Below, one piece after another: positions 2,382 to 43,248 of a DNA stretch of 64,000 bases. The notes beneath the pieces were generated by a model. That model had not been told where the DNA came from. It made no database searches and worked only from the letters and a program-made list of their open reading frames with translations. The DNA is taken from positions 863 to 64,862 of the forward strand of contig JAVBMC010000046.1 in assembly GCA_031552845.1 (NCBI GenBank). Direction: 5' to 3'. A program made the position numbers and the translations under genes. Source of the DNA: Kiritimatiellia bacterium (GTDB lineage Bacteria; Verrucomicrobiota; Kiritimatiellia; RFP12; DVOR01). Position 1 is the stretch's first letter. Each line of letters begins with the position of its first letter.

Positions 2382-2834
2382 ATGAAGTACCATTTAATTT
2401 CTGTGAGGGATTGTCCTGAATATCTTGAGCGTGCGGCGGAGTATTTTTCAGCGAAGTGGGATGTTGGCTACAGGGTTTATTTTGACAGCATCAAGCACAG
2501 TATCACTACGCCGAGTCCGCTGCCGCGGTGGTATCTGTTGGTGAATGATGGTGATGAGATTGTCGGCTGTTATAGTTTGGTCACAAATGATTTTAACAGC
2601 AGGCAGGATTTGTGGCCGTGGTTTTGTGCGTTGTATGTCGAGGAATCTGCGCGCGGGCAGAAGCTCGGGTCCATGATGCTTGAGCATGGTAAATGTGAGG
2701 CGAAGAAACTCGGCTTTGACACGGTGTATCTGGCGACTGATCTCGTGGGCTACTATGAAAAGTATGGCTTTACTTATCTGGCGCAGTGTTACGGGCTCGA
2801 TAATGAACAGCGTGTGTATGTGGCAACAGTCTGA
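2382..2834 (+). CDS. GNAT family N-acetyltransferase
   Basis: 150 aa. Acetyl-CoA binding-like core (CALYVEESARGQKLGSMMLEHGKCEAKKLGFDTVYLAT..YYEKYGF). RBS AAAGGATAAG precedes the ATG. Confidence 0.75.
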   Translation: MKYHLISVRDCPEYLERAAEYFSAKWDVGYRVYFDSIKHSITTPSPLPRWYLLVNDGDEIVGCYSLVTNDFNSRQDLWPWFCALYVEESARGQKLGSMMLEHGKCEAKKLGFDTVYLATDLVGYYEKYGFTYLAQCYGLDNEQRVYVATV

Positions 2835-2843
2835 GATTTAATT

Positions 2844-16243: not shown

Positions 16244-16335
16244 CCTCTCCTGCCGTGAAAGCAAACAGAGGTAGTGTAGCAGGATTCGCGGATTTTGCAA
16301 GTATGAAGGAGCTTTCGGCAACAAGTCCAAATAAG

Positions 16336-16535
16336 GCTCACGCGGAGACGCGGAGGCGCGGAAAGAAACTGACACGGTTGTTGGGCAGGGCGTGTTTCGC
16401 CGAAACCGCTGTGTGTGTTCGATGGAGTCGGTGAAATCGACGAAATCGCGTACTGTTTCTGGGAGCGCCGGCGTCCTCGCCGGCATTTGTGTGTGTCTCT
16501 CCTCTCTTTCCGCGCTTCCGCGTCTCCGCGTGAGC
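16336..16535. repeat. 30-bp inverted repeat pair (1 mismatch) enclosing ~140 bp; MITE-like or long hairpin
   Basis: GCTCACGCGGAGACGCGGAGGCGCGGAAAG at 16336..16365 and its reverse complement (one A/G difference) at 16506..16535. The enclosed segment contains the GTTTCGCCGAAAC palindrome. Confidence 0.6.
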
Positions 16536-16587
16536 TTCTTCTTCCCCTTGTCTTTATTGAGGTTCATTCTTCCGCAAACTTTCCCTC

Positions 16588-16615
16588 TTGACTTACTCCT
16601 TAATTCTGCTAAACT
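16588..16615 (+). promoter_or_regulatory. Sigma70-type promoter (TTGACT-N16-TAAACT) for HU-like gene copy 1
   Basis: TTGACT 16588..16593 and TAAACT 16610..16615. The same element and flanks are found at 41921..41948 upstream of copy 2. Confidence 0.55.
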
Positions 16616-16897
16616 GCATCCCCGTTGACCCCATTGAGTGACTCGTCACTGATTCGGATCTTGAGGCTCGGAGTTCCAAGCGAATCTCCGCCCCCCGACA
16701 TACGAGAGCTTAAGCTCCAAGGAGCCATCAACTATAAAGACTGCCCGTTTGGCCGGCGTGCAGTCCAGATGCCAGGGGGATATCCACCAATCGCACGAGT
16801 GTGCTGTATGGTTTATTCGGAATCGCTTTGGCGTCGGGTTGACAGACGCCGCCGACTGCCAGCATCAACTATAGGCGGCAAGAAAGAACAAGACATC

Positions 16898-17638
16898 ATG
16901 TCAACAACAACAAACGAGCCCACCAGCTCGATTCAGGTACAAATCGTCAAGCCCGTCTCCGGCGAGCTTGTTAAGGACGGACTGCAGACGGTGAAAGCCA
17001 TCTCCCGCAGCACCGTCTCCAACGCCCAGCTCCTCGACTTCATGGTCGGCGACGGCGGCGGCATCAGCAAACCTCAAGCCAAGGCTTTTTACGAAGCCTA
17101 TGCAGACACCGTCAGCCGGTTGCTCCTCGCGGGACACAACATCCCCGTGGGCGACCTCGGTTACCTGCACGTCACGGCCAAAGGCGTGTTTGATGCGGAA
17201 GGTAAACCCGTGGAAGGTAAAGAGCTGATCTTCAAGATCAAGTTCCTGCCCAAGAAGGTCGTCAAAAACCTTCTGGCGAACCTGCCCTATGAAACCGTCG
17301 AAGCTCACGACCGCCAGCCCCGTCTGAATACGGTGACCGACAGCATTACGCTGAACGTCAACTCCGTCGTCACACGCGGGATGTCGGCCAAGCTCAACGG
17401 CAAGAACCTCAAATTCCACCCCCTCGTGGCTGACGAAGGCCTCTTCTTCGTTCCCGTCGAGGGTGGAGCTGCGGTCAAGGTCACCCAATTCCTCGACAAC
17501 CGCGACGTACGTCTCACGTTCAACGTGCCGGGTGAACTCACGGAAGGCACCAACTACCGCCTCGAAGTGCGCAAACGCTTCAGCGGGTGCAAGGCCTTAC
17601 GTATCGGAACCCTTGAGAACACGCTCAGCGTGAACTAA
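16898..17638 (+). CDS. HU-like DNA-binding protein (Bacteroidetes-type HU_2 N-terminus) with DUF4469-like Ig-fold C-terminal domain, copy 1
   Basis: 246 aa starting MSTTTNEP. Overall architecture and the C-terminal block HPLVADEGLFFVPVEGG match the DUF4469-type family. The ORF-track upstream extension (16625) runs through a leader that is conserved at the nucleotide level but not in reading frame. Confidence 0.55.
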   Translation: MSTTTNEPTSSIQVQIVKPVSGELVKDGLQTVKAISRSTVSNAQLLDFMVGDGGGISKPQAKAFYEAYADTVSRLLLAGHNIPVGDLGYLHVTAKGVFDAEGKPVEGKELIFKIKFLPKKVVKNLLANLPYETVEAHDRQPRLNTVTDSITLNVNSVVTRGMSAKLNGKNLKFHPLVADEGLFFVPVEGGAAVKVTQFLDNRDVRLTFNVPGELTEGTNYRLEVRKRFSGCKALRIGTLENTLSVN

Positions 17639-17671
17639 CCTCGCGGCACTCACAGAGTAATAACCCAACCC

Positions 17672-17710
17672 AGGGGCAGGCGCCACATCGGCGTCTGCCC
17701 CTTTTTTATT
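17672..17710 (+). terminator. Rho-independent terminator
   Basis: GGGGCAGGCGCC-ACATC-GGCGTCTGCCCC followed by TTTTTTATT. Confidence 0.7.
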
Positions 17711-17777
17711 CCCAAGACGTATCATAAAAACACGCATGTTGAAAATGTGCGAGGCACGTGGTACAAAAGTTTGACGA

Positions 17778-17865
17778 GGCTCACACAAATTATCCATACG
17801 GCTCGCGCATTTTATCCATTGGGCTCAGTCAAAATACCCGCCCGGCTCACGTAAATATCCGAGCT
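17778..17865. repeat. Four tandem 22-bp direct repeats (iteron-like array) downstream of HU-like copy 1
   Basis: Units start at 17778, 17800, 17822 and 17844: GGCTCACACAAATTATCCATAC / GGCTCGCGCATTTTATCCATTG / GGCTCAGTCAAAATACCCGCCC / GGCTCACGTAAATATCCGAGCT. Confidence 0.75.
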
Positions 17866-18074
17866 ACGTCGCGGGACGCCAACATGAGACATCAGGTAAT
17901 GAGTGAGAAGTAATAGGTAATAAGTGTGAGAGGTATAGTGAAAATACTGAAAGAAGATGGAATAAAAGTTCATGTAGAGAAAATTGTCCTAAGACGGCAC
18001 AGATCCAAACAGATAATGGGAAAAGCAGTCAGTAAAGGTGATAGATAATACGTGGGGGAGACTAAACGCGGTAC

Positions 18075-18153
18075 GGCGGTTTCGGCGAAACCTACCCTAC
18101 CTTTGAGAGTAGGGCTGACGCGGTTGTTGGGTAGGGCGATGTTCGCCGAGCGC
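18075..18153. repeat. Palindrome-plus-hairpin repeat element (GGCGGTTTCGGCGAAAC ... CCCTACC-TTTGAGA-GTAGGG ... GTTCGCCGAGCGC)
   Basis: 13-bp perfect palindrome GTTTCGGCGAAAC at 18079..18091, followed by hairpin CCCTACCTTTGAGAGTAGGG. Related copies at 16393..16408 (reverse complement), 41841..41856 and 43207..43248. Confidence 0.7.
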
Positions 18154-18382
18154 GCCGTGTGGGGTAATGGTGTGTGGGTAAAGTTCACACGGAGATACGG
18201 AAGCGTGGAGAGAGCTGTAGAGAGTAGATTTGATGCGCACACACTCTCCATCTGCGTTCATCTGCGAAATCAGCGGATAAAGTTATCCACAGACGACACA
18301 GGTTTGCACAGAAAATTAACGGTGGCTTCGATGTACACGCTATTTATTTTCAATTCTCACTCTCTTTTCCTTTTTTTAGACT

Positions 18383-18502: not shown

Positions 18503-19429
18503 ATGATTAGACGAAGTCTAGGTCGTTTTGTGCCGATATTTTATTTATTATGCGTATTTGGATTACCGGTCTTTCCAGATCAGGCCATCGTTGACAAATC
18601 GCTGCTGGCGGATGATTCGTTGTTGATCCGCTCGCCATCAGACTTACAGCTGTTGTTGTATCAATGGCAGCAGCTGTCGGTGCCGTCGGTAGAACCGTCG
18701 GTTAAAGATGCAGGCATGTTTATATTTTCGCCGGATGGCATGGAATCGGAGTCGTTCTTTAACGCGCTATTGCCTGATCCGAGTCATGCGAATGCTTCGG
18801 TTGTTTTCGTAGAGGATGATGATTTGTCGGGGTATACGTTTTTTTATGATTTGCTGGGTGATCCGATTTATGCGCTTCCATTGCTAGATACCGTAACCGA
18901 TGGCGACGATGGCATCACTTTACGGGTATCGCTGTGGACATTCTTCAATCGAAACCGTAGTGAAACAGAGTTTGAAACTTTGCTGAGTAATTTACAACGT
19001 AGCCGCGGTATCTCAGGGAACAGCCGTAAGCTGGAACGGTTGGCACGCCTGATGTTGGAGCGCAATGCAATTCTGAGCCGTCCGGCGGCGGCCTTTGCGG
19101 AGACCAATGATTTCACGGAACGCCAGCGAGCGCTCGAGCCGAATGATGAACCGAGTTTATCAAAGGTCGTTTATGTGGATGCCAAGCAAGGGAATGATTC
19201 GCTCTCCGGCCGGGCGGCATCTGTAAAGAGCGGGCATGAAGGCCCTAAGCGAAGCGTGCGCAGCGGTGTTGCCGAGTTGGTTGAGGAAGATGTACTAGTC
19301 ATTCGTGAAGGACATTATGCCGAAGATCTGAACCTGCGTGATAAAGATGTGCGGGTGCGGATTGAAGGGACGGTTGTGTTAAGAGATGTCATTGATAGCG
19401 ATACAGCGAAAGAGCAGGTGACCCCATGA
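18503..19429 (+). CDS. Secreted hypothetical protein ending in the first turns of a right-handed beta-helix (DUF1565-like) motif
   Basis: ATG at 18503 with strong RBS AAAGGAGG. Signal peptide MIRRSLGRFVPIFYLLCVFGLPVFP. C-terminal VVYVDAKQGNDSLSGRA...GVAELVEEDVLVIREGHYAEDL resembles the start of pectate-lyase-like beta-helix proteins, but the ORF stops after ~60 aa of that domain. Confidence 0.6.
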   Translation: MIRRSLGRFVPIFYLLCVFGLPVFPDQAIVDKSLLADDSLLIRSPSDLQLLLYQWQQLSVPSVEPSVKDAGMFIFSPDGMESESFFNALLPDPSHANASVVFVEDDDLSGYTFFYDLLGDPIYALPLLDTVTDGDDGITLRVSLWTFFNRNRSETEFETLLSNLQRSRGISGNSRKLERLARLMLERNAILSRPAAAFAETNDFTERQRALEPNDEPSLSKVVYVDAKQGNDSLSGRAASVKSGHEGPKRSVRSGVAELVEEDVLVIREGHYAEDLNLRDKDVRVRIEGTVVLRDVIDSDTAKEQVTP

Positions 19430-20412
19430 GTATGCGATGGAATAAATGCATGTTACCCGGCGTGCTGGGATGCTGCTTGAGATTGAGTGTGCATGGAGAC
19501 ACGTTGGAGACTGACGCGGTGAAGGCAGATGAAGTTATTTTGCAGACGCTGTCATTTCGGCCGACGGTAACAACCGATGCATTCGCGCATTATCGTTTTG
19601 TAACGTCTGCTACTGTGACCAACGATACAACAGCCAATAAAAATATTTTGATCAGATCTAGTGCTGTTTGGTCCGCTACCGGTTATGCGGGCGGTGTTGG
19701 CGGTGGACTATCATTTGATGGAACGGCAGACTATGTGTATACCCCCACTGCCAGAGCTGTAACGCCAATGCCGACGTGGAACGCCTATTCCGTCAGCATG
19801 TGGTTTTTTCACAATGGCGGCGGTAAATTTGATGCGACACATTATCACCCTTTGTTGGACAAGAGCACCACAAAAATCGGCACCTTTCTAGCCTTAGACC
19901 CCACCGGTATTTCCGGTCCGGTTGGCTCGTTGACATTTCAAACTTTTGGAGTAACGCCTATTTGTTCCATGCGGGATGCTACTAAAAACTATATGGATAA
20001 CACTTGGCATCACGTGGTATTGATTAAAAATGATTCTAACGGGCAGTTATGGGTTGACGGTGAGCTGAAGGATCAAACTTCGGATTTGGCCTGTGTGACG
20101 AATACTTCCGGTCTTTTCTTCGGGAGACGCTCCACATCTTTTGAGAGTGGTTCAACTGCTCCCAGCTGGAGTGGGCTGATGGATGAGATTCAAATATTCA
20201 AACGTGCGTTGGAGCCTTCAGAGGTGACGAATCTCTTTGTGCATAATGGACCGTTTCCACTGAAGACGGCGCTTGAGGTAACCACTAATCTAACGGTGAA
20301 TGGTGATGTCCACGTAGGAGGCCGTTTGTCTTTCACAGGTGAGAAGATGCAGTTGCGGGCTTCAGGTGATGTGGAGTGCGGGATTTTCAGCAACGGTGTG
20401 ACTGTTCCCTAA
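19426..20412 (+). CDS. Secreted LamG/concanavalin A-like lectin domain protein 1
   Basis: Start overlaps the upstream stop (ATGA). LamG_3-like motifs: LSFDGTADYVYTP, WHHVVLIKNDSNGQLWVDGEL, SGLMDEIQIFKRALEPSEVTNLF. C-terminal module L.V.G.V..G...........GDVECGIFSN. Confidence 0.75.
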   Translation: MSMRWNKCMLPGVLGCCLRLSVHGDTLETDAVKADEVILQTLSFRPTVTTDAFAHYRFVTSATVTNDTTANKNILIRSSAVWSATGYAGGVGGGLSFDGTADYVYTPTARAVTPMPTWNAYSVSMWFFHNGGGKFDATHYHPLLDKSTTKIGTFLALDPTGISGPVGSLTFQTFGVTPICSMRDATKNYMDNTWHHVVLIKNDSNGQLWVDGELKDQTSDLACVTNTSGLFFGRRSTSFESGSTAPSWSGLMDEIQIFKRALEPSEVTNLFVHNGPFPLKTALEVTTNLTVNGDVHVGGRLSFTGEKMQLRASGDVECGIFSNGVTVP

Positions 20413-20423
20413 TGGAGTCTATC

Positions 20424-21479
20424 ATGAAGCGATTAATTTTAAGTGTTTGGATTTGCTGTTTAGGGCTTGGCCTTACAGCAGCTGTGCTGGTGACAGATAT
20501 TGTAAAAACGGATGAGGTGCTGACAAAGGCTTTAGTATTGCAGCCTTTATTTCCGACGGATGCGTATGCCAACTATCAGTTTTTGACTTCGGCATCTTCG
20601 GCCTCCGACTCGAGCACCAATGGATTCACAGTAGTGAAAACCGGCGTCACGTGGAGAAACGCGACCTATGCCTATGCAAATGGCGGGTGCATGTATTTCG
20701 ATGGCAAAGGGGCTTTTCTGACGGTGACCAATAAATTGGAGTTGGCGGCATTTCCGGCATGGGAACAGTACTCCGTCAGCATCTGGTTCAAGCATGATGG
20801 CAAGGGTACCATTGGCCAGCATCATATGTTATTCGATAAAAGCGCCAGCGATACTGTTTGCATGTTAAGCTTGGATAACGGCACTTGTTTTCCCGGCGCG
20901 CCCGACTACGCACCTTTGGTGTTTTGGCTATACGATGAAGGCATAGATCAAATGATTTTCCTTTCGACGGATGCTATCTGGAATTTTGGCGTCTATCCGG
21001 AAGGCACGGATGAAGCGGACTATGAACCGTTCGACTACAGAGATAACCAATGGCATCATGTGGTTGTCGTGCGCAATGGTCCCGTCGGGGAGCTTTGGGT
21101 GGATGGTCGGTTGAACGATTCAACCGCGAACGGTTGGTGGGACGATATGTTTAACGTAACGAATGCCTCTAATTTGTATTTCGGGCGATGCTCGCCTTGG
21201 TATGAAGCTGCCTCATCTTCTACGGTTGTCAGCTGGAGCGGGATGATGGACGAGATCCAAATCTTTGACCGTGCGTTGAGTGCCCGTGATATCGTCAATC
21301 TATTTCAACGCGGTACGCCGATTGAACCGCTGACAGCAGTCGCTGTCCCTGCAAGTTTGGCTATTCAAGGTGAACTGACGGTGACGGGTCAAGTCTCCTG
21401 TGTCGGCACGACTTATCTGCGTCCGATGGGGGACCTCTCTTGCGGCGATTTTACGAACAGCCCTGCACTTCAGCCTTGA
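20424..21479 (+). CDS. Secreted LamG/concanavalin A-like lectin domain protein 2 (paralog)
   Basis: ATG at 20424 after GGAG. Signal peptide MKRLILSVWICCLGLGLTAAV. LamG-like motifs: MYFDGKGAFLTV, WHHVVVVRNGPVGELWVDGRLND, SGMMDEIQIFDRALSARDIVNLF. C-terminal GDLSCGDFTN. Confidence 0.75.
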   Translation: MKRLILSVWICCLGLGLTAAVLVTDIVKTDEVLTKALVLQPLFPTDAYANYQFLTSASSASDSSTNGFTVVKTGVTWRNATYAYANGGCMYFDGKGAFLTVTNKLELAAFPAWEQYSVSIWFKHDGKGTIGQHHMLFDKSASDTVCMLSLDNGTCFPGAPDYAPLVFWLYDEGIDQMIFLSTDAIWNFGVYPEGTDEADYEPFDYRDNQWHHVVVVRNGPVGELWVDGRLNDSTANGWWDDMFNVTNASNLYFGRCSPWYEAASSSTVVSWSGMMDEIQIFDRALSARDIVNLFQRGTPIEPLTAVAVPASLAIQGELTVTGQVSCVGTTYLRPMGDLSCGDFTNSPALQP

Positions 21480-21509
21480 TCTGATGACTCTTAATATTGG
21501 TGTGATTTT

Positions 21510-24500
21510 ATGAAATATTCGGTTCTATTACGCTTCAATTTTTTTGCTTGCGCCAGTTTGGTTATGGCCGCTTGGGTACACAGCGCGGTGACTACGGTTA
21601 CTACCCTCGATTCGACCGAAGTACAAACTGAGGCCATTCACCCGCTCCTCGCGACGCAAAAGATCGTACGGGTACAAGGCGGCCTAGATATTGCACACGA
21701 CTTGACCGTCCAAGGCAACACCCATTTGGCAACAGGTATGCTTCTGGTTCCGCCGCTGGGCGATGTGTCTATGGGGAGTTTTACAAACGATCTAACTGAG
21801 GCTCCGGCTTGGTGGTCCGACTATGGCGTAATCAACCCCGAGAGCCAGCCGAATGACTATGCGGCGGTTATACAAGGGCAAGTCAAGTGGATGGCTCTTT
21901 GTGCGGCTGAAATGCTGAATGACGTGTTGCGTTATGTTGGCGGTGCCGGTGAAGCGGTTAATGATTTGGTTGACTCATTGACGTTGGGCAATAACACATT
22001 GCCAACCAGCTTAGGACAGCTTAAAAATACGGCATTGCCGTTCTGGGAGCGGATGATTCAGGTTGGATTAGTGGAGGAACTGCCATGGCAGGGCGAGAGC
22101 AGCGATTACAGCATTGCTAGTATTGGACAAGCTAAATATTTGTTCAATTTGCCCCTAGATGCCACGGACTCGGATGGCGATGGCTTGCCTGATTTTCTTG
22201 AACGGCTTTTAGGCACTGATCCTCTTGTCGCCGATAGCGATAATGACGGATTGTCCGATGGTTGGGAGGTTGAGCACGGCTTTGATCCGCTGGATGCAAC
22301 GGATGCTCTACGCGATAGTGACAATGACGGGATGCCCGATGCGTGGGAAATACAGCATAATCTAAACCTAAATGACGCAAGTGATGCCCTTCTTGATCCT
22401 GATTGTGACGGGCTGACTAACTTGGAAGAATACCGAAACGGCACCCACCCGTTCAACTCCGATACAGACGGAGACGGCTTTACGGATGGTTGGGAAGTGA
22501 TGGTTGGCCTCAAGCCTCTTGACCCGATGGATGGGGCAAGCATGATGGCCAATCTTCCGCCACAGGCGAATATTCCGATGGCGTGCTTTACCAACCATCT
22601 AGACACAAACTATCCGGTCGATCTTTCTCCTAGTCCGCTCAACCCTTGGTATGTTGCGTGTGATTATACAAAACTTTGGTGGATGAATGATGGTTTGCTT
22701 GCTACGGTGATTGGCAATAATGATTTTGCTGCCGTCACACAAGGGCAAGCGAAACTGCTATTCGCGAAAGCCGCTGAGCGCGTTGACCATGTATTTCGTT
22801 TTGCTGGAGGAGCAGGCGATGAAATTCGTGGGTTTATTGAATCCTTGCCTGCGGCTAATGATGACCTGCCGGTTACGGTCGGCATACTTCAAACAGGGAT
22901 CAATTGTTTTCAGAACCGATTCAAACAAATTTCGGCGATGCCATCTTCTCTGAATTCGCCATGGCTGAATGACATCCAGCTGATCGATTATTTTTTAGAG
23001 GAGACTTGGAGCCATTATCCGGCTAATGTCGGACAACTCAAATCATTGGTTCTATTTTCGGGACTCTTAGAAGATACTGATGATGACGGATTTCCAGACG
23101 TACTTGAGCTTTGCTGGTACGCAACTAGGCCTGAAAATCCTGATTGTGATGATGATGGCTTGTTGGATGGCGAAGAAATATTTACTTATGGTACAGAGCC
23201 ATGGGCATGGGATACAGACGGTGATTATTTTTCAGACGGATGGGAGGTTGAACATGGCTTTGATCCATGGGGGCCAAACGATGCACAATCAATCGACAGT
23301 GATAATGATGGAATACCGGATGCGTATGAACTCTATTGGTTTGGTGATTTAGAGACGGTTAGCGGAAATTATTGTACCGAGTCAGGGTTTATGTTGAGCG
23401 CCTTACTTGCACATAAAGCAGGAGCCTCGCATCACATGTACGAGTACGGGCCAACTCCGTGGGACAATCCGCTCTATGATTTCTATGAATCTGACGAGAA
23501 TGTGAGAGGCATTCAACTTGTTAATTACTTTGGTCTATGGCCATTGCAATACATGACAGATGTGGTTTATGAGCGAACTTTTTCCATTGACCCAAGGCCG
23601 GGACAACACGTTTTTATTGCGGACTCTGCAAGGAATGGGAGCGTTTTCGGATTGTGTGCCTTGCTGTTGGAATGGGAAGATTCAAACGGTAAGCGAGGTG
23701 AGATATGGGGCGGATGGTACGACGGCTTCATTCGACTTCCCGTCTCGCTTTACAATTTGACCTCTATTACGATTCGCTTGAGAGCAACCGGTGGATTTGG
23801 TTCACAGTGTACTTGTACTCCAATCGATCTTTTATTCATCACCGATGAAGCTTGGGCGATAGATAGTGATGGCGATGGATTGACAGATGTGTTGGAAGAG
23901 GAGTATGGAACCGACCCGCTCGTGTATGACACTGACGGGGATGGGTTGTCAGATGGATTGGAAATTACCTTCGGAACCAATCCGCTCCTAGCAGATAGTG
24001 ACGGGGATGGACAGTTAGATGGTTGGGAGGTCGCTCACTTGACCGATCCGCTGAATGCGAAGGGCGGTGTGCTACTCGACACGGATGGCGATGGCATGCC
24101 CGATCTCTGGGAACAGTTTTACGGATTGGATCCATTTGATCCCACGGATGCGGATTTAGACCCGGATGGAGATGGCTTGACGAATTGGCAGGAACTCCAA
24201 GCCGGAACCTATCCCTTCGTTTGGGATACGGATGGTGATGGCATGCCGGATGGCTGGGAAGTCGAACATGGGTTGAATCCCTTGAATCCTGATGACGCGT
24301 TACTGGATGCGGACAATGACGGGCTTACGAATCTTGAGGAGTTTCAGAAAGGGAGCAATCCGAATCGGGTCGATAGCGATGGTGACGGATTTGCTGACAA
24401 ATGGGAACTGGACAATGGCTTTAATCCCGCTGCTCCGGGCGATGTGACGGTTGACAGCAATAATAATGGTTTCGATGATGATGAAGAAAACCGTTGGGGC

Positions 24501-24668
24501 GCAGACCGCCCCGCGCCAACAGATGATCCCTCTAGGACAATCCGTTATTATTACGACGACGATGATCGCTTGATAGGCAGCTATTTCGGCGCTTCCCAAA
24601 GCGCGACCACGACAATTTATTCCCCTGCCGGTAACCCAATCATGAGACACACAAGAGGTTCAAAATGA
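21510..24668 (+). CDS. Large secreted protein with multiple thrombospondin type-3-like Ca-binding repeat blocks (D.D.DG..D..E) and an internally duplicated ~120-aa module
   Basis: Signal peptide. More than 25 D.D.DG..D motifs (for example TDSDGDGLPDFLE, DSDNDGLSDGWEVEHGFDPLD, DPDCDGLTNLEEY). Repeated module DYAAVIQGQVK...GGAGE...GQLK. An N-terminal GDVSMGSFTN motif is shared with the LamG proteins. The 3' end overlaps the RHS gene start. Confidence 0.75.
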   Translation: MKYSVLLRFNFFACASLVMAAWVHSAVTTVTTLDSTEVQTEAIHPLLATQKIVRVQGGLDIAHDLTVQGNTHLATGMLLVPPLGDVSMGSFTNDLTEAPAWWSDYGVINPESQPNDYAAVIQGQVKWMALCAAEMLNDVLRYVGGAGEAVNDLVDSLTLGNNTLPTSLGQLKNTALPFWERMIQVGLVEELPWQGESSDYSIASIGQAKYLFNLPLDATDSDGDGLPDFLERLLGTDPLVADSDNDGLSDGWEVEHGFDPLDATDALRDSDNDGMPDAWEIQHNLNLNDASDALLDPDCDGLTNLEEYRNGTHPFNSDTDGDGFTDGWEVMVGLKPLDPMDGASMMANLPPQANIPMACFTNHLDTNYPVDLSPSPLNPWYVACDYTKLWWMNDGLLATVIGNNDFAAVTQGQAKLLFAKAAERVDHVFRFAGGAGDEIRGFIESLPAANDDLPVTVGILQTGINCFQNRFKQISAMPSSLNSPWLNDIQLIDYFLEETWSHYPANVGQLKSLVLFSGLLEDTDDDGFPDVLELCWYATRPENPDCDDDGLLDGEEIFTYGTEPWAWDTDGDYFSDGWEVEHGFDPWGPNDAQSIDSDNDGIPDAYELYWFGDLETVSGNYCTESGFMLSALLAHKAGASHHMYEYGPTPWDNPLYDFYESDENVRGIQLVNYFGLWPLQYMTDVVYERTFSIDPRPGQHVFIADSARNGSVFGLCALLLEWEDSNGKRGEIWGGWYDGFIRLPVSLYNLTSITIRLRATGGFGSQCTCTPIDLLFITDEAWAIDSDGDGLTDVLEEEYGTDPLVYDTDGDGLSDGLEITFGTNPLLADSDGDGQLDGWEVAHLTDPLNAKGGVLLDTDGDGMPDLWEQFYGLDPFDPTDADLDPDGDGLTNWQELQAGTYPFVWDTDGDGMPDGWEVEHGLNPLNPDDALLDADNDGLTNLEEFQKGSNPNRVDSDGDGFADKWELDNGFNPAAPGDVTVDSNNNGFDDDEENRWGADRPAPTDDPSRTIRYYYDDDDRLIGSYFGASQSATTTIYSPAGNPIMRHTRGSK

Positions 24669-27600
24669 AGTTTTTTTGGAAACTATTAATCGTTTGCTGT
24701 TACTTCGCTGTCACACTACAAGCTCAAGAAAGTGAGTCGCCGTCCGGTTGGTTAATTAGTGTGGCAGATAGCGAAATACCTCCTCTTAGTGATTGGCCTC
24801 AGGTATCGGTGCCTTCAAAACCTCCGCTATCCGTACGGAGCAAGGCAACGGCTGCTGCAAATCGTTTGATGGCTACGTCCCAACAGGCACCTGAGCGCGT
24901 TTTGCCGACTGTGCTTGATCTTGGCTTGCAGCAAACTTTGCCTGCATCGGATATGGCCTTAATTAAGGAATTGGCGCGTGGACTGGATTATGATTGGGAG
25001 AAGTGTTATTACTTTGTCCGTAATCATATTAATTATGTGCCGTGTGGTGGCATTATGCGAGGCCCGGAACGAACCCTTTTGGATAGAGAGGGTAATGATG
25101 CTGATCAAGCATTCTTATTACTGGCATTGTTGAGAGCTTCCGGTTATACGGCAACAATTCTACACGTGCCATTGACTCAGGTAAGCGGTCAACCGACCCA
25201 AGGATTCTGCGTGCCGATAGCCAATCAAAACGGGGAATTGGTTTATAATGCTGCCGATTGGTTGGGAGGAAAGAGCTTCAACTCATTGCAGGAGGCTGGT
25301 GACGGAGTGGCACAGTGTCTGCAGATCGCTAAACGATCGTTAAGAGGAATTACGGATACCGCCACTGGAATCAGAATGATTGTTACTGATCACTTTTGGG
25401 TTTCGTTGACTCTGGATGGCGAAACAAAATGGCTTGATCCATCCTTTAAACCCGTTCGTCGAACATCTGTCCGCTCAATTTTGGACGATATGGGATATCA
25501 GCGTAACTCGCTTCTACAATCAGCCAATGGCGTTGTGAATCCCAATTCCGTCAGTAACCTGACGTTCAATGGTATAAAAACTCAATTGGGTTTATGCGTC
25601 GATAATCTAAGAACGCTCTGGGCCGACACGAATATTAATGCTTCGGCCTATGTTGGTAAGGTTGAAATCGTCGAGCAAACTGACTCCGAGTACTTTCATG
25701 GTTCTGTTTTCGGCACCCCGTCCGATTTTCTGGCAAAATCCCAGACAGATAAAAATGGTTTTAGAGTACCGATGAAATTGAATGTCTCAATATCTGGGCC
25801 ATCGGCTAATTTATATTTGGACGAGGTCGGCCCCCGTCGTCTCTGGGTGAGTTATGTAAGTGGAAGCGGTTCTACAGGGTATAAGACGGCTCTCAAGTTA
25901 GACACCATCACATTGGCGGAGGCATCAGCCGCATCTACCGCAATCGACGAGACAATGACCCTTGAAGTTAATTATTTTTCGACCAAGCACTCTGCCAATT
26001 ATTCTTTTAAGCGTGCTTTGACGAGTGCTTATGCGATTGTTGTCGGATTTGGTGGAGATCATCGGGATGGTATGCGTGTGTGGACCGCCGAGCAATTGGC
26101 CAATCTACGCGTGACCGCGCCTGCGAGTGATATACAGTTGGTTGCGGCCTCTCTGCAAGTGGCAGGGCACCAATGGCTTGCGCAAACGGCAATGATGCGC
26201 TCTTTTCGAAATAAAGTTTTTAACTATAATCGGCAACAGTTTTACAATATAGGGGTTGCCGGACAAGCTAGTTCTCCTTATGTTGATGTGAGAAACTCTT
26301 ATAGTTACACACCGGATGATGTTCAAGATTTGGACGGTGGCATGCTGTTTTCGAGCGCATTGGAACATGCGGTGCTTGATCAACTCAATGGAACGAACCG
26401 TCCGGCCGTTTCAACCATCAAAGTGTTGGAGCTTGCAAATACTGCAGGAGTTCCGGTATATTTTGCGACGAGTGCAAACTATGCTACAATCAGGGGAAGT
26501 CTGCTGAATTATACCACAGATCAGCTTGCTTCCTTTGCGACAGCAGTTGGAGCTGGACGTAAACTATTAGTGCCAAGAGATGCACGCATCCGTTTGAAGG
26601 ATTGGACGGGGTATGGGTATATTGAGCAAGGCCCAGCATCGATCGGTAACCAAACTTATACTACCAGTATGGCAATTGGCGGTGGGTTTGCTGGCGGCTA
26701 TGCTGCTGTTGACAACTTTGTATTAGATCCTCCGCCTGCCGTACTTGATCATTCTATTTTACCGAATGCTGCAACGCCAGAAATGACCCAGGCCGATCCC
26801 GTCACCATGCCGGCAGGTGCCTACATTGATTCGAGTACAGATATTGCTGATATTGGAGCTGTTCCGGTAATATGGACGCGCCAGTATGATTCACGCAAAC
26901 GTTATGCGAATGGTCCGCTGGGACGAGGATGGATTCACAATTATGAGGCCTCTGTCACCCTCTCCAGCGACCCTGATGCGATTTTTGGCCATGCTTCTCT
27001 CGAGGCCGTCCTTCCGACGGTAGTGGCGATGGCGGCAGTGGAGGACATGCTTGCTAAGCAAAAGACTGCGTTGACATCTGGAGAGCAGGCCAAGTGCTGG
27101 ATGGTTGCGGCATTGACGGTGCAATGGTGGGTTAGCCGATTTGTCGATGCAACGGCTGTCGTTAATTTGGGCAATAAAACATTGTCTTTTCAAGCTAGGA
27201 CAACCGGCAAGCCGCAGGGCGAAGAAGCGGTTGTTTACGTGCCCTATCCCGGAGTGACAGCAACGCTGGTGAAAAAACCTCTGGAAAAGAGGCTTCACTT
27301 AATAGAACGTCTTGGGGCAACTTTTTGCTTTGACGAAACCAAGAGCAACAGATTGGCCGAAATTGTTCACTCCGCGGGGAGTCATACAGAGTTGAAGTAT
27401 GATACTTCTGGCAAACTTTCTATTATCACCAATAGTTCCTCTCGTACGGCGTTATCAGTAAAATGGAATACTGCTAATCGGATTGTCGGCGTGACGAATT
27501 GTTTTAAAGCGGGTGTTGGATATACGTATGATAGCAAGGGATGTTTGACACAGGCAAAAGACGCGCTCGGGCAGTCTTGGATATCGACTTACGATCCCGT

Positions 27601-41744: not shown

Positions 41745-41840
41745 TTGTGTGAATCACGGCGCGGCGCGTTCAGTCACTCTTCCCCTTGGGAGCGCGGGCA
41801 TTCCTGCTCGCATGATGTTTGTGTGTGCGTCAGCGGGTGC

Positions 41841-41856
41841 GGCGGTTTCGGCGAAG
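41841..41856. repeat. GGCGGTTTCGGCGAAG palindrome-family repeat (5' flank of HU-like copy 2)
   Basis: Same motif as 18075 and 16393. Preceded by GGGTGC as in the 43202 copy. Confidence 0.6.
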
Positions 41857-41920
41857 TCGATGAAGTCGAGTTTGTGTCTCCCCTGAGCGTACCAGCGTCC
41901 CCGCCGGCATTCTTTCCCTC

Positions 41921-41948
41921 TTGACTTATCCCCTTAATCTGCTAAACT
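41921..41948 (+). promoter_or_regulatory. Sigma70-type promoter (TTGACT-N16-TAAACT) for HU-like gene copy 2
   Basis: Nucleotide-identical core to 16588..16615. Followed by a ~250-nt leader about 85-90% identical to the copy 1 leader. Confidence 0.55.
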
Positions 41949-42197
41949 GCAACCCCGTTGACCCCATTGGGTGACTCGTCACTGACGCATGGCGCATACG
42001 AGAATCCAAGCTCCAAGGAGCCATCAACTATAAAGGACAGCCCGTTTGGCCGGCGTGCAGTCCAGATGCCAGGGGGATATCCACCATCGACGCGAGTGCG
42101 TCAATCGGTCTACTTCGGAATCGCCATGGCATCGGGCTGACAGACGCCGCCGGCTGTCAGCTTAACACTTCAAGGCGGCAGTTAGGAAATTAAAACC

Positions 42198-42908
42198 ATG
42201 GCTATTCGATATCACTTAGGGCCCGCGCTGCGGGCGGATCGGGCGGCGGCGGGCGAGATGATTGTGCATTCATCCACCGCACTGCGCATTCAGCAAGAGG
42301 AACTCGCCGACGAACTCGTCCGCCAAGGGACAACCGTGCGCCGCGCCGATGTGCTGGCCGTACTCGATAATCTCGGACTCGCGGTGGGGCACCTGTGCGC
42401 CCGCGGCATTGCGGTTTCAATTCCGAATCTCGGCACCATGACCCCGCGCGCTCGGGGCGTGGTCGATCGCAACGGCGCGTGGGTCCGCCCGCTGGAGGGG
42501 TACTTGACGCTACAAGCCGACCGCGGGCTGGAGGCTGTTTTCAATCAACACGCAAAGTTCCAAGAAGTCCCCCGCAAACCGGTACGCGCCATCATTCGGC
42601 GGATTTTCAACGTAACTGCCGCTCCGGGAGATGTCCGGCTCGTGCCGGGTGATGTGTTCGAAGTACAAGGCCGGCATTTACGGTTCAATGCCGCCGCGGC
42701 CGATGAAGGGATTTTTCTGAAACGCGCCGAGGGTTCAACTACGGAGGAGGTCAAGGTGATCGAGGTTTGGCCCCAGACCCCCTCGCGGGTACTCTTCCGC
42801 GTGCCGACCACAATCATGCCCGGGGACTGGTTATTAGAGGTGCGGGTCCGCCAAAAGGACTGTTCACGCGTAACCGTGTCCGAACCGCAAATTATTTTGA
42901 CCTGTTGA
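42198..42908 (+). CDS. HU-like DNA-binding protein with DUF4469-like C-terminal domain, copy 2
   Basis: MAIRYHL N-terminus typical of Bacteroidetes-type HU_2 family proteins. C-terminal NAAAADEGIFLKRAEG block parallels copy 1. RBS-like AGGAAATTAAAACC precedes the ATG. Confidence 0.55.
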   Translation: MAIRYHLGPALRADRAAAGEMIVHSSTALRIQQEELADELVRQGTTVRRADVLAVLDNLGLAVGHLCARGIAVSIPNLGTMTPRARGVVDRNGAWVRPLEGYLTLQADRGLEAVFNQHAKFQEVPRKPVRAIIRRIFNVTAAPGDVRLVPGDVFEVQGRHLRFNAAAADEGIFLKRAEGSTTEEVKVIEVWPQTPSRVLFRVPTTIMPGDWLLEVRVRQKDCSRVTVSEPQIILTC

Positions 42909-42935
42909 CCGCTCCGTTTATATGTGCGTACGCTT

Positions 42936-43045
42936 CACGGGCTTGCAACCCCGTCATCACGGGCTTCGAACCCCGCGCCCGCGGGCTTGCAAGCCCCACC
43001 CGATGGGCTTATAAGCCCGTGGACGCAGGCTTATAACCCCGCACG
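42936..43045. repeat. Five tandem 22-bp repeats, each a small palindrome (GGGCTTGCAAGCCC / GGGCTTATAAGCCC type), downstream of HU-like copy 2
   Basis: Unit starts at 42936, 42958, 42980, 43002 and 43024, exact period 22. Unit shape nnnGGGCTTnnAAnCCCnnnnn. Confidence 0.8.
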
Positions 43046-43206
43046 CAGATAGTGCGTGTTGCGGTGTTGTTCAACCAGTGCTGCGGCACTTGCGCACGGT
43101 TGGTGCAGTGCGGAATCAATCGCATTAGCCCTGCTGGCTCCATCTCATGACTTCTCCGATTTTCACCGACTTCTTCGATAATGTTGTGGGTGCGGCGGTC
43201 TCGGCG

Positions 43207-43248
43207 AAACGCGCCCTACCTTTTGGAAGTAGGGCTGGCGCGGGCATG
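43207..43248. repeat. Palindrome-plus-hairpin repeat element (GGCGGTCTCGGCGAAAC..GCCCTACC-TTTTGGAA-GTAGGGC)
   Basis: Homologous to 18075..18113. Flanked by ~32-bp direct repeats (approx. 43132..43166 and 43268..43302: C.GGCTCCA.CTC..GACTTC.CCG). Confidence 0.65.

What the first reader, a model, noticed from the sequence alone, without database searches (positions are those of the whole stretch)
16336..18153. HU-like/DUF4469 gene inside a repeat-bounded non-coding cassette (copy 1)
The HU-like gene at 16898..17638 sits in a non-coding framework with a defined order. Upstream is a 13-bp perfect palindrome GTTTCG-N-CGAAAC (16393..16408), then a TTGACT-N16-TAAACT promoter (16588..16615) and a ~280-nt leader. 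After the gene come a terminator (17672..17710), four exact 22-bp tandem repeats (17778..17865), and a second palindrome copy plus a CCCTACC/GTAGGG hairpin (18075..18153). The same order recurs at 41.8-43.3 kb around a diverged paralog. A nucleoid-protein gene flanked by phased 22-bp iterons and dimer-type palindromes looks like a self-contained nucleoprotein module, for example an origin or centromere-like site, an autoregulated locus, or the cargo of a cryptic mobile element. I cannot name a matching described system.
Basis: seen in the sequence. Interest (0 to 1): 0.8.

Follow-up and report, generated by a model that had tools for sequence, protein, structure and literature searches.

The report
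HU-like gene with private repeat array
Two divergent copies of a poorly understood HU-like (DUF4469) gene each carry a shared regulatory leader and their own short 22-bp repeat array, and the same gene-plus-array pairing recurs in distant bacteria, which gives this protein family of unknown function its first candidate binding site.

Summary
The features are real, but the 22-bp units are not exact: they are 50-73% identical pairwise, although the periodicity is highly non-random. The gene (16898-17638) and its paralog (42198-42908) are HU-HIG/Ig (DUF4469) proteins, closest to PDB 4FMR, and only 24% identical to each other.

- **Shared promoter and leader.** Both paralogs have a ~90% identical promoter plus a 250-285-nt foldable 5' leader. 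In an ortholog this leader is more conserved than synonymous sites, and Rfam has no match.
- **Private array next to the gene.** A 22-24-bp tandem array beside the gene is a family trait. I formed this idea on PVC-like loci and tested it on 10 newly fetched loci (~190 kb). All 5 arrays that TRF found lay 5-130 bp 3' of the DUF4469 gene and nowhere else. All 6 Parabacteroides paralogs have one once degenerate arrays are counted.

The unit sequences are specific to each locus. The GTTTCG-N-CGAAAC palindromes belong to REP/REPIN-like units.

An origin or centromere is not supported. The context is chromosomal (nusA/infB, purL), there is no Rep or Par gene, and GC skew does not switch.

Best reading: an autonomous gene with a cis-regulatory leader and a cognate phased binding array. 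Binding itself is inferred, not shown.

The parts
16336..16535 (.). 200-nt MITE/REPIN-like hairpin element upstream of copy 1. Its 31-nt inverted arms are 16336-16366 and 16505-16535. It contains a palindromic unit at 16384-16412, which includes the GTTTCGCCGAAAC palindrome at 16394-16406.
   Evidence: The inverted arms are 97% complementary. The only Rfam E-value hits are to plant hairpin miRNA families, which means a long hairpin and not membership. The 20-mer CTCACGCGGAGACGCGGAGG recurs exactly in L010.
16588..16615 (+). Sigma-70-type promoter TTGACT-N16-(TG)TAAACT of copy 1. The block conserved with copy 2 starts at 16579.
   Evidence: Consensus scan. The same hexamers and spacing occur at 41921-41948. 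Alignment.
16616..16897 (+). Conserved, foldable 5' leader of about 285 nt. It has a 37-nt variable insertion at about 16661-16697.
   Evidence: About 90% identical to 41949-42197 outside the insertion. RNAalifold predicts 65 pairs, 3 with compensatory double changes and none broken. Fold z-scores are -1.9 for copy 1 and -3.96 for copy 2. No Rfam family matches.
16898..17638 (+). HU-HIG (Ig subclade) / DUF4469 gene, copy 1, 246 aa.
   Evidence: Pfam DUF4469 E=4e-15, with HU-HIG and HU-DNA_bdg below their cut-offs. The profile hits PDB 4FMR at E=3e-14. The AlphaFold model has pLDDT 93.9, and its top Foldseek hit is 4FMR at E=3e-16, followed by HU/IHF proteins.
17672..17710 (+). Intrinsic terminator of copy 1.
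   Evidence: 13-bp stem, 10 G-C pairs, T-run.
17778..17865 (.). Array of four degenerate 22-bp units (GGCTCAC.CAAAT.ATCC...), each pairing a GC-rich head with an A/T tract in phase.
   Evidence: Lag-22 autocorrelation is 0.59 and 0 of 5000 shuffles reach it. The unit core occurs nowhere else in the window.
18069..18161 (.). REPIN-like doublet downstream of copy 1. It consists of a palindromic unit GGCGGTTTCGGCGAAAC (18075-18091), the CCCTACC/GTAGGG hairpin (18095-18114), and an inverted second unit (18115-18161).
   Evidence: Region 18115-18161 is 81% identical to 16369-16415. Region 18070-18123 is 84% identical to 43189-43243.
41835..41911 (.). Upstream palindromic-unit region of copy 2 (GGGTGCGGCGGTTTCGGCGAA...). 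Its 41848-41911 part is 74% identical to 16428-16487.
   Evidence: (family D11).
41921..42197 (+). Promoter (41921-41948) and about 250-nt leader of copy 2.
   Evidence: The 3' 118 nt are 95% identical in the ortholog L005, against 79% identity at third codon positions of the adjacent conserved coding region.
42198..42908 (+). HU-HIG (Ig) / DUF4469 gene, copy 2, 236 aa.
   Evidence: Pfam DUF4469 2e-9. HU-HIG scores 28.1 bits, above its 26.2 cut-off. 24% identical to copy 1.
42935..43044 (.). Array of five 22-bp units with a dyad core, GGGCTTGCAAGCCC. It starts 27 bp after the stop codon with no terminator in between.
   Evidence: The exact 14-mer GGGCTTGCAAGCCC is kept 3' of the 73%-identical ortholog in L005, while the surrounding spacer cannot be aligned.
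43188..43243 (.). Downstream palindromic unit plus CCCTACC hairpin of copy 2. It is a direct repeat of 41835-41855 (21 nt, 95%).
   Evidence: A homologous unit with its hairpin also lies downstream of the ortholog in L005.

Best explanation
The locus is one of two copies of a small autonomous module built around a stand-alone HU-HIG (Ig-fused, DUF4469) gene.

Shown:
- Each gene has its own sigma-70-type promoter.
- Each has a 250-285-nt leader that is far better conserved than the coding sequence and folds into a multi-helix structure.
- Copy 1 has a strong terminator.
- Each has a short tandem array with a 22-bp period just past the gene.
- The array units differ completely between the paralogs and are not found elsewhere nearby.
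- A private 22-24-bp array next to the gene recurs across the family in unrelated bacteria.

Inferred:
- The leader is a lineage-specific cis-regulatory RNA that puts the paralogs under common control.
- The array is the cognate cis-acting binding site of the dimeric protein encoded beside it. Most units carry a dyad core, and they are spaced about two helical turns apart, so successive dimers would sit on roughly one face and form a phased nucleoprotein complex.
- Because the array tracks the 3' end of the HU-HIG gene whatever lies downstream, its most likely role is self-addressing or autoregulation of that paralog, possibly also insulating or tuning the adjacent operon.

The GTTTCG-N-CGAAAC palindromes are REP/REPIN-like palindromic units that frame the module. 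They are not its functional core.
For: **Family.** Pfam, the PDB profile hit and the AlphaFold/Foldseek result all point to 4FMR and HU/IHF.

**Leader.**
- The promoter and leader are about 90% identical between paralogs whose proteins are 24% identical.
- In ortholog L005 the leader is 95% identical, against 79% at third codon positions of the 98%-identical HU domain.
- RNAalifold gives 65 pairs, 3 compensatory and none broken. A 37-nt insertion falls inside one hairpin.
- The two L005 substitutions in the GCTGACAG/CTGTCAGC helix are C-to-U and A-to-G. Both keep pairing only in the + strand RNA.

**Array, initial loci.** L004 has 24 bp x5.5 right after its terminator. L010 has 23 bp x4 after its terminator. 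L011 has about eight 22-bp units after its terminator. L012 has 23 bp x5. L009 and L015 have arrays upstream.

**Array, out-of-sample test.** I then fetched 10 new loci, about 190 kb.
- TRF found 5 arrays, all 5-130 bp 3' of the DUF4469 gene and none elsewhere.
- Relaxed scanning adds L019 and L020, so 6 of 6 P. distasonis paralogs have one.

**Array, statistics.**
- Overall, 12 of 14 TRF arrays in 318 kb lie within 600 bp of an HU-HIG gene.
- Against intergenic DNA only, there are 7 arrays in 8.9 kb next to HU genes and 2 in 18.5 kb elsewhere. Binomial p=0.007; Fisher by gap p=2e-4.

**Array, other properties.**
- Unit cores are private to their arrays. The one exception is an exact solitary copy near the L015 promoter.
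- The GGGCTTGCAAGCCC core is conserved in the copy-2 ortholog.
- The period stays at 22-24 bp although the unit sequences are unrelated.
- The proteins are basic, with pI 9.2 and 9.5.
Against: - There is no binding evidence of any kind.
- Burroughs et al. 2017 (PMC5499826) argue from 4FMR that the Ig domain occludes the HU clasp, so the Ig-fused forms are unlikely to bind DNA in the classical way and are unlikely to be sequence-specific factors.
- The arm region here is short and partly acidic (sequence).
- 5 of the 23 genes have no nearby array (L007 x2, L008, L013, L021), and 3 have only degenerate motif clusters.
- Arrays of the same type occur away from HU-HIG genes, at window 59384-59473 and L013 6952-7134.
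- The array position is inconsistent. It lies beyond a terminator in the PVC-like loci, in short co-directional spacers in Parabacteroides, and upstream in two loci.
- The leader structure rests on 2.5 sequences from one genus. Its thermodynamic signal is not strand-specific: the reverse complement gives z=-3.15.
- The leader was not found upstream of more distant homologs.
Confidence: 0.5

Rival explanations
1. The arrays act as RNA. They would be tandem small hairpins in the 3' UTR or intercistronic spacer of the HU-HIG transcript. They could be bound by the HU-HIG(Ig) protein, or they could protect or process the mRNA 3' end, as REP elements do in E. coli.
For: - In Parabacteroides and L012 the arrays start 5-43 bp after the stop codon, or lie before the terminator, so they should be co-transcribed.
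- Window copy 2 has no terminator between the stop codon and the array.
- Most units contain a hairpin-capable dyad.
- PMC5499826 suggests the Ig-fused forms may bind RNA or protein rather than DNA.
Against: - In window copy 1, L004, L010, L011 and L023 the array lies beyond a canonical intrinsic terminator.
- In L009 and L015 it lies upstream of the promoter region.
- Cores such as GGGCTTGCAAGCCC and CCTCATAGGTATGAGG are near-perfect palindromes with two central bases. That fits dimer sites on duplex DNA better than RNA hairpins.
- No Rfam family matches.
Confidence: 0.2
2. The repeats are ordinary genomic repeats. HU-HIG genes are stand-alone and sit in long, dispensable spacers where REP-like palindromes and minisatellites accumulate. 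On this view neither the arrays nor the palindromes have any functional link to the gene.
For: - REP/REPIN-like units and other dispersed repeats clearly populate these spacers.
- A third array in the window and the L013 array are not next to an HU-HIG gene.
- Inside the window alone, array density is no higher beside the HU genes than in other intergenic DNA: 2 arrays in about 2.9 kb against 1 in about 2 kb (my count).
- The units are degenerate.
Against: - In the out-of-sample test, all 5 TRF arrays in about 190 kb lie within 130 bp 3' of the gene, including Parabacteroides spacers of only 135-170 bp.
- Enrichment holds against intergenic DNA.
- Unit cores are locus-private and not dispersed.
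- The period stays at 22-24 bp across phyla although the sequences are unrelated.
- The core motif is conserved in an ortholog whose spacer has otherwise diverged.
Confidence: 0.12
3. The unit is a mobile or exchangeable cassette. The segment running from palindromic unit through promoter-leader, gene and array to palindromic unit would move or be swapped as a block. This could happen by recombination between the flanking REP-like direct repeats, or by a RAYT or IS200/IS605-type enzyme acting in trans.
For: - The two copies share their flanks, at 74% upstream, about 90% for promoter-leader and 84% downstream, around unrelated centres.
- Copy 2 is bracketed by 21-nt direct repeats that are 95% identical (D11). 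Copy 1 is bracketed by 47-nt direct repeats that are 81% identical.
- The copy-2 ortholog in L005 keeps the leader, array motif and downstream unit but has different downstream neighbours.
- The Ig-domain half of the gene is mosaic, 53% against 98% amino-acid identity.
Against: - No transposase, integrase or RAYT gene is in the window.
- No target-site duplication is seen.
- Only two copies could be examined.
- The flank repeats are palindromic units of a kind that insert independently into spacers.
- Other paralogs from the same sample (L010, L011) lack the leader.
Confidence: 0.12
4. The locus is a replication origin or partition centromere, with iterons plus an accessory HU-like protein.
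For: - The 22-bp phasing and the 4-5 units resemble iteron origins (my own knowledge of R6K and pPS10-type origins).
- One perfect and two near-perfect DnaA boxes lie at 17790-18291.
Against: - Two or three such arrays occur within 45 kb of a chromosomal segment that carries nusA/infB and purL.
- No Rep, ParA, ParM or TubZ gene lies among the neighbours.
- Cumulative GC skew rises through the locus without a switch.
- DnaA-box-like sites are not enriched in the window, 18 against 11.6 expected.
- The units are only 50-73% identical.
- The same arrangement occurs six times in the P. distasonis records, beside fimbrial and polysaccharide loci.
Confidence: 0.02

Closest known systems
HU-HIG clade of the HU/IHF superfamily, Ig-fused subclade (Pfam PF18291 + PF14734/DUF4469; PDB 4FMR, BVU_2165; Burroughs et al. 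2017, PMC5499826)
   Same: The domain architecture matches: a modified HU domain plus a C-terminal Ig-like domain. The genes are stand-alone with no conserved operon partner. A genome holds several fast-diverging paralogs, and the C-terminal half is the variable part.
   Different: The family was described mainly as a Bacteroidetes expansion, whereas this host looks PVC-like by its neighbouring genes and its taxon is not established. The paper reports no associated non-coding elements and argues against sequence-specific DNA binding. Here each gene carries a private tandem array, and in this lineage also a conserved structured leader.
Iteron arrays of theta-replicating plasmids (for example R6K gamma ori with seven 22-bp iterons and pPS10 with four; recalled from my own knowledge, not checked here)
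   Same: There are four to eight direct repeats phased at about 22 bp, next to the gene of a protein that could bind them. HU/IHF-type proteins act at such origins.
   Different: No Rep initiator gene is present, nor a DnaA-box/AT-rich unwinding module. The setting is chromosomal and multi-copy, and the units are much more degenerate. The membership test failed.
Centromere-binding proteins or autoregulators with tandem cognate sites (ParR-parC type, omega heptads; my own knowledge)
   Same: A small dimeric DNA-binding protein is encoded beside a tandem array of its own sites, forming a phased higher-order complex that also autoregulates.
   Different: There is no partner NTPase gene. The array usually lies 3' of the gene rather than in its promoter. 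The protein fold is different.
REP/BIME/REPIN elements, including the IHF-binding BIME class (RIP/RIB) of E. coli (my own knowledge)
   Same: The flanking GGCGGTTTCGGCGAAAC / GTAGGG-containing units are short GC-rich imperfect palindromes. They occur singly and as inverted doublets in spacers at gene ends. There is precedent for HU/IHF-family proteins binding repeated extragenic elements.
   Different: The 22-24-bp arrays are not dispersed families, because each unit is private to one locus. No RAYT gene could be looked for, and the genome-wide copy number of the palindromic units is unknown.
Protein-binding or metabolite-binding 5' leaders (ribosomal-protein leaders, riboswitches)
   Same: This is a long, conserved, multi-helix 5' UTR upstream of a nucleic-acid-binding protein gene. 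It is more conserved than synonymous sites and has a variable-length hairpin.
   Different: No Rfam family matches. It is known only from one genus-level lineage (2.5 sequences). No expression platform such as a terminator or a helix sequestering the ribosome-binding site is evident.

Membership tests
HU-HIG clade, Ig subclade (DUF4469) | C-terminal Ig-like DUF4469 domain | tested here: met
   PF14734 scores 56 bits for copy 1 and 37.6 bits for copy 2, against a cut-off of 22.6. The profile matches 4FMR across residues 28-231 at E=3e-14.
HU-HIG clade, Ig subclade (DUF4469) | N-terminal HU/IHF-fold domain | tested here: met
   HU-HIG scores 28.1 bits, above its 26.2 cut-off, for copy 2. Copy 1 is below the cut-off at 22.9. 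The copy-1 AlphaFold model (pLDDT 93.9) matches 4FMR at E=3e-16 and then HU/IHF structures at TM 0.65-0.83 relative to the target.
HU-HIG clade, Ig subclade (DUF4469) | Extra N-terminal beta-hairpin buttressing the HU sheet (PMC5499826) | tested here: inconclusive
   The model has strands at residues 12-17 and 31-35 before the HU helices, which is consistent. I did not superpose it on 4FMR residue by residue.
HU-HIG clade, Ig subclade (DUF4469) | Stand-alone gene, several fast-diverging paralogs per genome, no conserved operon partner | tested here: met
   The window holds two paralogs at 24% identity. Each has its own promoter, and copy 1 has its own terminator. Neighbours differ among the 23 loci.
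Iteron-type replication origin | Adjacent Rep initiator gene | tested here: not met
   Pfam scans of the neighbours give TPR, LamG, TSP3, RHS, PPIase and unknowns. No Rep family appears.
Iteron-type replication origin | Highly similar iterons plus DnaA boxes and an AT-rich unwinding element; replicon or skew-switch context | tested here: not met
   Units are 50-73% identical. DnaA-box-like sites number 18 against 11.6 expected. There is no GC-skew switch. The context is chromosomal.
Partition centromere (parC/parS type) | Partner partition NTPase gene (ParA/ParM/TubZ) in the same operon | tested here: not met
   None lies among the neighbours. The gene is monocistronic.
REP/REPIN elements (for the flanking palindromes) | Short GC-rich imperfect palindromes, single and as inverted doublets, confined to spacers | tested here: met
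   Four to five units lie in the window, all intergenic. There is an inverted doublet at 18075-18161 and a 200-nt hairpin at 16336-16535.
REP/REPIN elements (for the flanking palindromes) | Tens to hundreds of copies genome-wide and a cognate RAYT transposase gene | not testable with these tools
   Only one 64-kb window and short Logan contigs of this organism were available.
Known RNA families (Rfam 15) for the leader or the arrays | Match at or above a family's gathering score | tested here: not met
   No match in the window. Nothing credible at E<=10 in 16300-18300. In 16 related loci the only hits are a tRNA and a cobalamin riboswitch elsewhere.
Integron gene cassette | attC site with RYYYAAC...GTTRRRY cores and a nearby IntI integrase | tested here: not met
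   Read by eye, GTTTCGGCGAAAC does not fit either core. No integrase is in the window.

The most novel reading that the evidence does not exclude
HU-HIG(Ig) proteins are sequence-specific binders of tandem repeats, and each paralog co-evolves with a private 'self' array beside its own gene. The family would then be a diversifying recognition system for iteron-like 22-24-bp repeat arrays, the same architecture as plasmid iterons and the transposase-binding ends of Tn7 or Mu. The chromosomal array would serve as an autoregulatory calibrator or decoy, and the real targets would be repeat arrays on invading plasmids or transposons. This would give a mechanism for the 'biological conflict' role that Burroughs et al. 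proposed.
Probability: 0.12. Interest if true: 0.85.

Novelty: new variant of a known kind. Interest (0 to 1): 0.62.

Why it matters
HU-HIG/DUF4469 proteins form a large family. My profile found 2,414 clusters at 50% identity. They expand into many paralogs per genome in gut Bacteroidales and other phyla, yet they have no known ligand or function. The only analysis I found in the literature (PMC5499826) reports no conserved genomic partner and argues against sequence-specific DNA binding.

A private, phased 22-24-bp array beside most family members is a conserved partner made of non-coding DNA. It turns 'what do these proteins recognise?' into a one-week experiment: test each protein against its own array and against a swapped one.

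In Parabacteroides the module sits at the head of fimbrial, surface-protein and polysaccharide loci, one of them behind an invertible-promoter-like element. The answer could therefore bear on regulation of surface variation in gut bacteria.

The conserved leader is also a candidate new cis-regulatory RNA.

Tried and rejected
1. I spent the single genome-contig scan on the leader 19-mer AGATGCCAGGGGGATATCC. It returned three chance hits in unrelated phyla, so I could not count the palindrome or the leader genome-wide.
2. The look-up of encoding contigs failed for the closest copy-1 orthologs P0001-P0003 and for P0011, so I could not test whether the copy-1 array is conserved in orthologs.
3. 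The metagenome scan by protein alignment gave only two loci, L007 and L008, both without arrays.
5. tblastn of copy 1 against plasmids found nothing. A second tblastn with the L018 protein only re-found the same six loci.
6. I looked for leader homology upstream of the more distant homologs L004 and L009-L011. BLAST at word size 7 found none, so I did not build a covariance model from 2.5 sequences.
7. A conserved upstream ORF in the leader is rejected. A possible MPGGYPP... ORF starts in the invariant block, but the two copies shift frame after 7 codons (my reading).
8. A CsrA-type sponge of GGA motifs is rejected, because GGA is absent from several arrays (reading).
9. An origin is rejected on DnaA-box counts and GC skew.
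10. An integron attC site is rejected by eye.
11. The arrays cannot simply be upstream regulatory arrays for the next operon. In L010, L012 and L022 the next gene is convergent.
12. Organism naming through cluster look-ups returned no names.
13. Literature searches for DUF4469, 4FMR and HU plus tandem repeats found nothing beyond PMC5499826.


Full report
**1. What is in the sequence**

The coordinates given are essentially right.
- The ORF 16898-17638 encodes 246 aa with a DUF4469 Ig-like domain (56 bits, cut-off 22.6). Its HU-HIG/HU-DNA_bdg hits are weaker.
- A profile of this protein and its relatives matches PDB 4FMR (BVU_2165) at E=3e-14 over almost the full length.
- An AlphaFold model (pLDDT 93.9) finds 4FMR first (E=3e-16) and then classical HU/IHF proteins for the N-terminal ~90 residues.
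- The protein is therefore a member of the Ig-fused subclade of the HU-HIG clade described by Burroughs et al. 2017 (PMC5499826).
- The promoter-like TTGACT-N16-TAAACT (16588-16615) and a strong intrinsic terminator (17672-17702 plus T-run) are present.
- The perfect palindromes are at 16394-16406 and 18079-18091, and a one-mismatch copy is at 43198. That is 3 matches against 0.26 expected by chance.
- The CCCTACC/GTAGGG hairpin is at 18095-18114.

The claim of 'four exact 22-bp repeats' is wrong in one respect. Four units are in register at 17778, 17800, 17822 and 17844, but they are only 50-73% identical pairwise, and TRF sees 2.3 copies at 75% matches. The periodicity is real all the same. 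Lag-22 autocorrelation is 0.59, and none of 5000 shuffles reaches it at any lag from 15 to 30.

The second copy (gene 42198-42908, 236 aa) has the same order of parts.

**2. The best-conserved part is the promoter and leader**

The two proteins are 24% identical, so the coding sequences cannot be aligned as DNA.
- Regions 16579-16863 and 41912-42161 are about 90% identical apart from a 37-nt insertion in copy 1. This includes both promoter hexamers.
- A Logan contig from the same sequencing run, L005, carries a 73%-identical ortholog of copy 2. There the last 118 nt of the leader are 95% identical.
- In the same comparison, third codon positions of the adjacent HU domain are only 79% identical, although that domain is 98% identical in amino acids. 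The leader is therefore constrained as nucleotide sequence.
- It folds into a multi-helix structure. RNAalifold gives 65 pairs, 3 with compensatory double changes, 6 with one-sided changes that keep pairing, and none broken. The 37-nt insertion lies inside one hairpin.
- The two L005 substitutions in the GCTGACAG/CTGTCAGC helix are C-to-U and A-to-G. They keep pairing only in the + strand RNA.

Caveats:
- Only 2.5 sequences from one lineage are available, and the structure was predicted from them.
- The fold z-scores are -1.9 and -3.96, and the reverse complement scores -3.15, so the thermodynamic signal does not identify the strand.
- Rfam has no match.
- More distant homologs have different upstream regions.
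- A possible short ORF in the leader is not conserved in frame.

I read the leader as a lineage-specific cis-regulatory 5' UTR shared by the paralogs. This is an inference.

**3. The arrays**

The copy-2 array (42935-43044) has five 22-bp units with a dyad core, GGGCTTGCAAGCCC. It is unrelated in sequence to the copy-1 units.

The first distant homolog I could retrieve was L004, a JGI metagenome contig whose protein is 30% identical. It shows the same anatomy: promoter, long leader, gene, terminator, then a 24-bp x5.5 array. Further relatives followed.

| Locus | Array | Position |
|---|---|---|
| L010 | 23 bp x4 | after its terminator |
| L011 | about eight degenerate 22-bp units | after its terminator |
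| L012 (Bacteroidetes-like contig) | 23 bp x5 | after a two-gene unit |
| L009 | 22 bp | upstream |
| L015 | 23 bp, plus one exact solitary core copy near the promoter | upstream |
| L005 | two dispersed copies of the dyad core | 3' of the gene |
| L007 (two genes) | none | - |
| L008 | none | - |
| L013 | 23 bp x8 | 2.9 kb from the gene |

**4. Out-of-sample test**

Once I had formed the hypothesis, I fetched ten further loci, about 190 kb with background. I found them by tblastn of the L012 protein against the annotated plasmid and phage collections. They comprise six Parabacteroides distasonis paralogs, Treponema saccharophilum, Fulvitalea axinellae and two faecal contigs.
- With fixed TRF criteria (period 18-30, at least 2.8 copies, score at least 40), five arrays were found. 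All lie 5-130 bp 3' of the DUF4469 gene, and there are none anywhere else.
- A relaxed autocorrelation scan adds degenerate 23-bp arrays directly after the stop codons in L019 and L020. So 6 of 6 P. distasonis paralogs have one.
- Fulvitalea has a motif cluster after its terminator, and T. saccharophilum has nothing.
- Over all 318 kb, 12 of 14 TRF arrays lie within 600 bp of one of the 23 genes.
- I also counted against intergenic DNA only, in the 13 loci that have background. There are 7 arrays in 8.9 kb beside HU genes and 2 arrays in 18.5 kb elsewhere. Binomial p=0.007; Fisher by gap p=2e-4.
- The unit cores are private to their arrays within 2-64 kb of context, so these are not dispersed repeat families.
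- The period is held at 22-24 bp while the sequences are unrelated, and most units carry a short dyad.

The link between gene and array is therefore real and family-wide, although it is neither universal nor exclusive. The window's third array at 59384-59473 lies between a Sel1-like ORF and purL.

**5. The palindromes**

The GTTTCG-N-CGAAAC palindrome is the core of a longer unit, GGCGGTTTCGGCGAAAC followed by a CCCTACC...GTAGGG hairpin.
- It occurs four to five times in the window, always in the spacers that flank the two genes.
- Downstream of copy 1 it forms an inverted doublet (18075-18161).
- Upstream of copy 1 it lies inside a 200-nt element closed by 31-nt inverted arms (16336-16535).
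- Other short repeats in these spacers recur next to a paralog on another contig, L010. These include the exact 20-mer CTCACGCGGAGACGCGGAGG and a CATCTGCG... element.
- In form these are REP/REPIN-like palindromic units.
- A homologous unit with its hairpin also lies downstream of the copy-2 ortholog in L005, whose other neighbours differ.
- Each window copy is bracketed by direct repeats of the unit, 21 nt at 95% for copy 2 and 47 nt at 81% for copy 1.

A cassette reading therefore cannot be excluded. However, there is no transposase, integrase or target duplication in the window, and I could not count these units across the genome.

**6. Context and excluded readings**

The window is chromosomal.
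- It carries nusA and infB at 31.5-35.5 kb and purL at 55.4-59.3 kb.
- Copy 1 sits upstream of a LamG/TSP3/RHS operon. Copy 2 sits upstream of unknown proteins, a PPIase and two very large proteins.
- Cumulative GC skew rises through both loci.
- DnaA-box-like sites are not enriched, 18 against 11.6 expected, although one perfect box lies at 18283.
- No Rep or Par gene is nearby.

An origin or centromere is not supported.

In Parabacteroides the module heads fimbrillin, large surface-protein and polysaccharide gene clusters. In L017 it follows an integrase gene and an inverted-repeat-bounded ~300-bp segment that looks like an invertible promoter. In three loci, however, the next gene is convergent. 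The feature common to all loci is the 3' end of the HU-HIG gene itself.

**7. Mechanism**

Shown: the anatomy, the conservation pattern, and the statistical link between gene and array.

Inferred: the array is the cognate cis site of the adjacent dimeric protein. The units have dyad cores spaced about two helical turns apart, which would give a phased multi-dimer complex. The most economical role is paralog-specific self-addressing or autoregulation, possibly with an effect on the neighbouring operon.

Points in favour:
- In the copy-2/L005 pair the HU domain is 98% identical and the array core is unchanged, while the Ig domain is 53% identical.
- L015 has a solitary core copy near its promoter.
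- The proteins are basic (pI 9.2 and 9.5).

Points against:
- The structural argument from 4FMR is that the Ig domain occludes the HU clasp (PMC5499826).
- The arm region is short and partly acidic.
- The array position relative to terminators is inconsistent.
- About a third of the genes have no clear array.
- There is no binding evidence.

An RNA-level role is the main rival. It fits Parabacteroides, L012 and window copy 2, but not the loci where the array lies beyond a terminator.

**8. Comparison and novelty**

The protein is a known family. I found no description of the non-coding partners in the searchable literature: no paper mentions DUF4469, and only PMC5499826 discusses HU-HIG or 4FMR. 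No Rfam family matches.

In kind, a DNA-binding protein gene next to a tandem array of presumptive cognate sites resembles iteron and centromere systems. The defining features of those systems were tested and not met. I therefore rate this a new variant of a known kind.

Its interest is moderate to high, because it makes the ligand question for a large family of unknown function directly testable.

Noticed in passing
window 59384-59473: A third tandem array, 23 bp x4, with dyad core GATGGGAnTCCCATC. It lies between a Sel1-like ORF (59532-60032, minus strand) and purL (55411-59262, minus strand), so it is not next to any HU-HIG gene. It could be an orphan site for a paralog encoded elsewhere, or evidence that such arrays occur independently.
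   Followed up: partly
window 42198-42908 compared with L005 119-829: The orthologs are mosaic. Codons 1-90 (HU domain) are 98% identical in amino acids, with 79% identity at third positions. Codons 121-236 (Ig domain) are 53% identical, with 41% at third positions. This points to recombination or strong diversifying selection confined to the Ig domain.
   Followed up: partly
L017 9078-9438 (Parabacteroides distasonis NZ_OY725766.1): The inverted repeats CCCTTATTCGCGAAATAAGGGG and CCCCTTATTTCGCGAATAAGGG bracket about 300 bp between a site-specific integrase gene and the DUF4469 gene. This looks like a Bacteroidales invertible promoter driving an operon whose first gene is the HU-HIG gene.
   Followed up: no
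L015 394-411: There is a solitary exact copy of the array core CCAGCAGGCTTTTTGTGA about 125 bp before the ATG of the DUF4469 gene. It is in addition to the 5.5-unit array at 64-181 and a second 23-bp array at 1-73. The layout resembles an operator.
   Followed up: partly
window 17880-18060: A tract of about 180 nt that is almost free of C on the + strand (purine/AT-rich). It lies between the copy-1 array and the REPIN-like doublet. It has no Rfam hit and no counterpart at copy 2.
   Followed up: no
window 18283-18291, 17790-17798, 18173-18181: One perfect DnaA box (TTATCCACA) and two one-mismatch boxes lie within 500 bp downstream of copy 1. Two of the copy-1 array units contain TTATCCAT. Across the window the count is not significant (18 against 11.6 expected), and GC skew does not switch.
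   Followed up: yes
window 43542-43800: A second TTGACC-N17-(TG)TAAACT promoter is followed by a leader of about 230 nt before the gene starting at 43800. Long leaders may be common in this organism.
   Followed up: no
window 18503-30754: A co-directional cluster downstream of copy 1. It encodes an unknown 308-aa protein, two LamG-domain proteins, a 1052-aa TSP3-repeat protein and a 2029-aa RHS-repeat protein (a polymorphic-toxin-type locus).
   Followed up: partly
window 20-4052: Three paralogous ORFs of about 400 aa (20-1090, 1094-2311, 2844-4052) share 63-79% identical DNA blocks. None has a Pfam domain, and a GNAT acetyltransferase gene sits between them.
   Followed up: no
L005 1 and L006 1 (Logan SRR23967709): Both assembly contigs begin at the same leader position, immediately after the 47-nt block that is invariant between the paralogs. 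The leader therefore acts as a repeat in the assembly graph. Paralogs P0010 and P0014, from the same run, lack this leader.
   Followed up: partly
L013 6952-7134: A 23-bp x8 array (GGGCTGGGATCGGATCGAATCCT) in a Treponema-like contig. It lies between a Na/H antiporter gene and an EcoRI-methylase-like gene, 2.9 kb from the DUF4469 gene, in a stretch rich in antitoxin and methylase genes.
   Followed up: no
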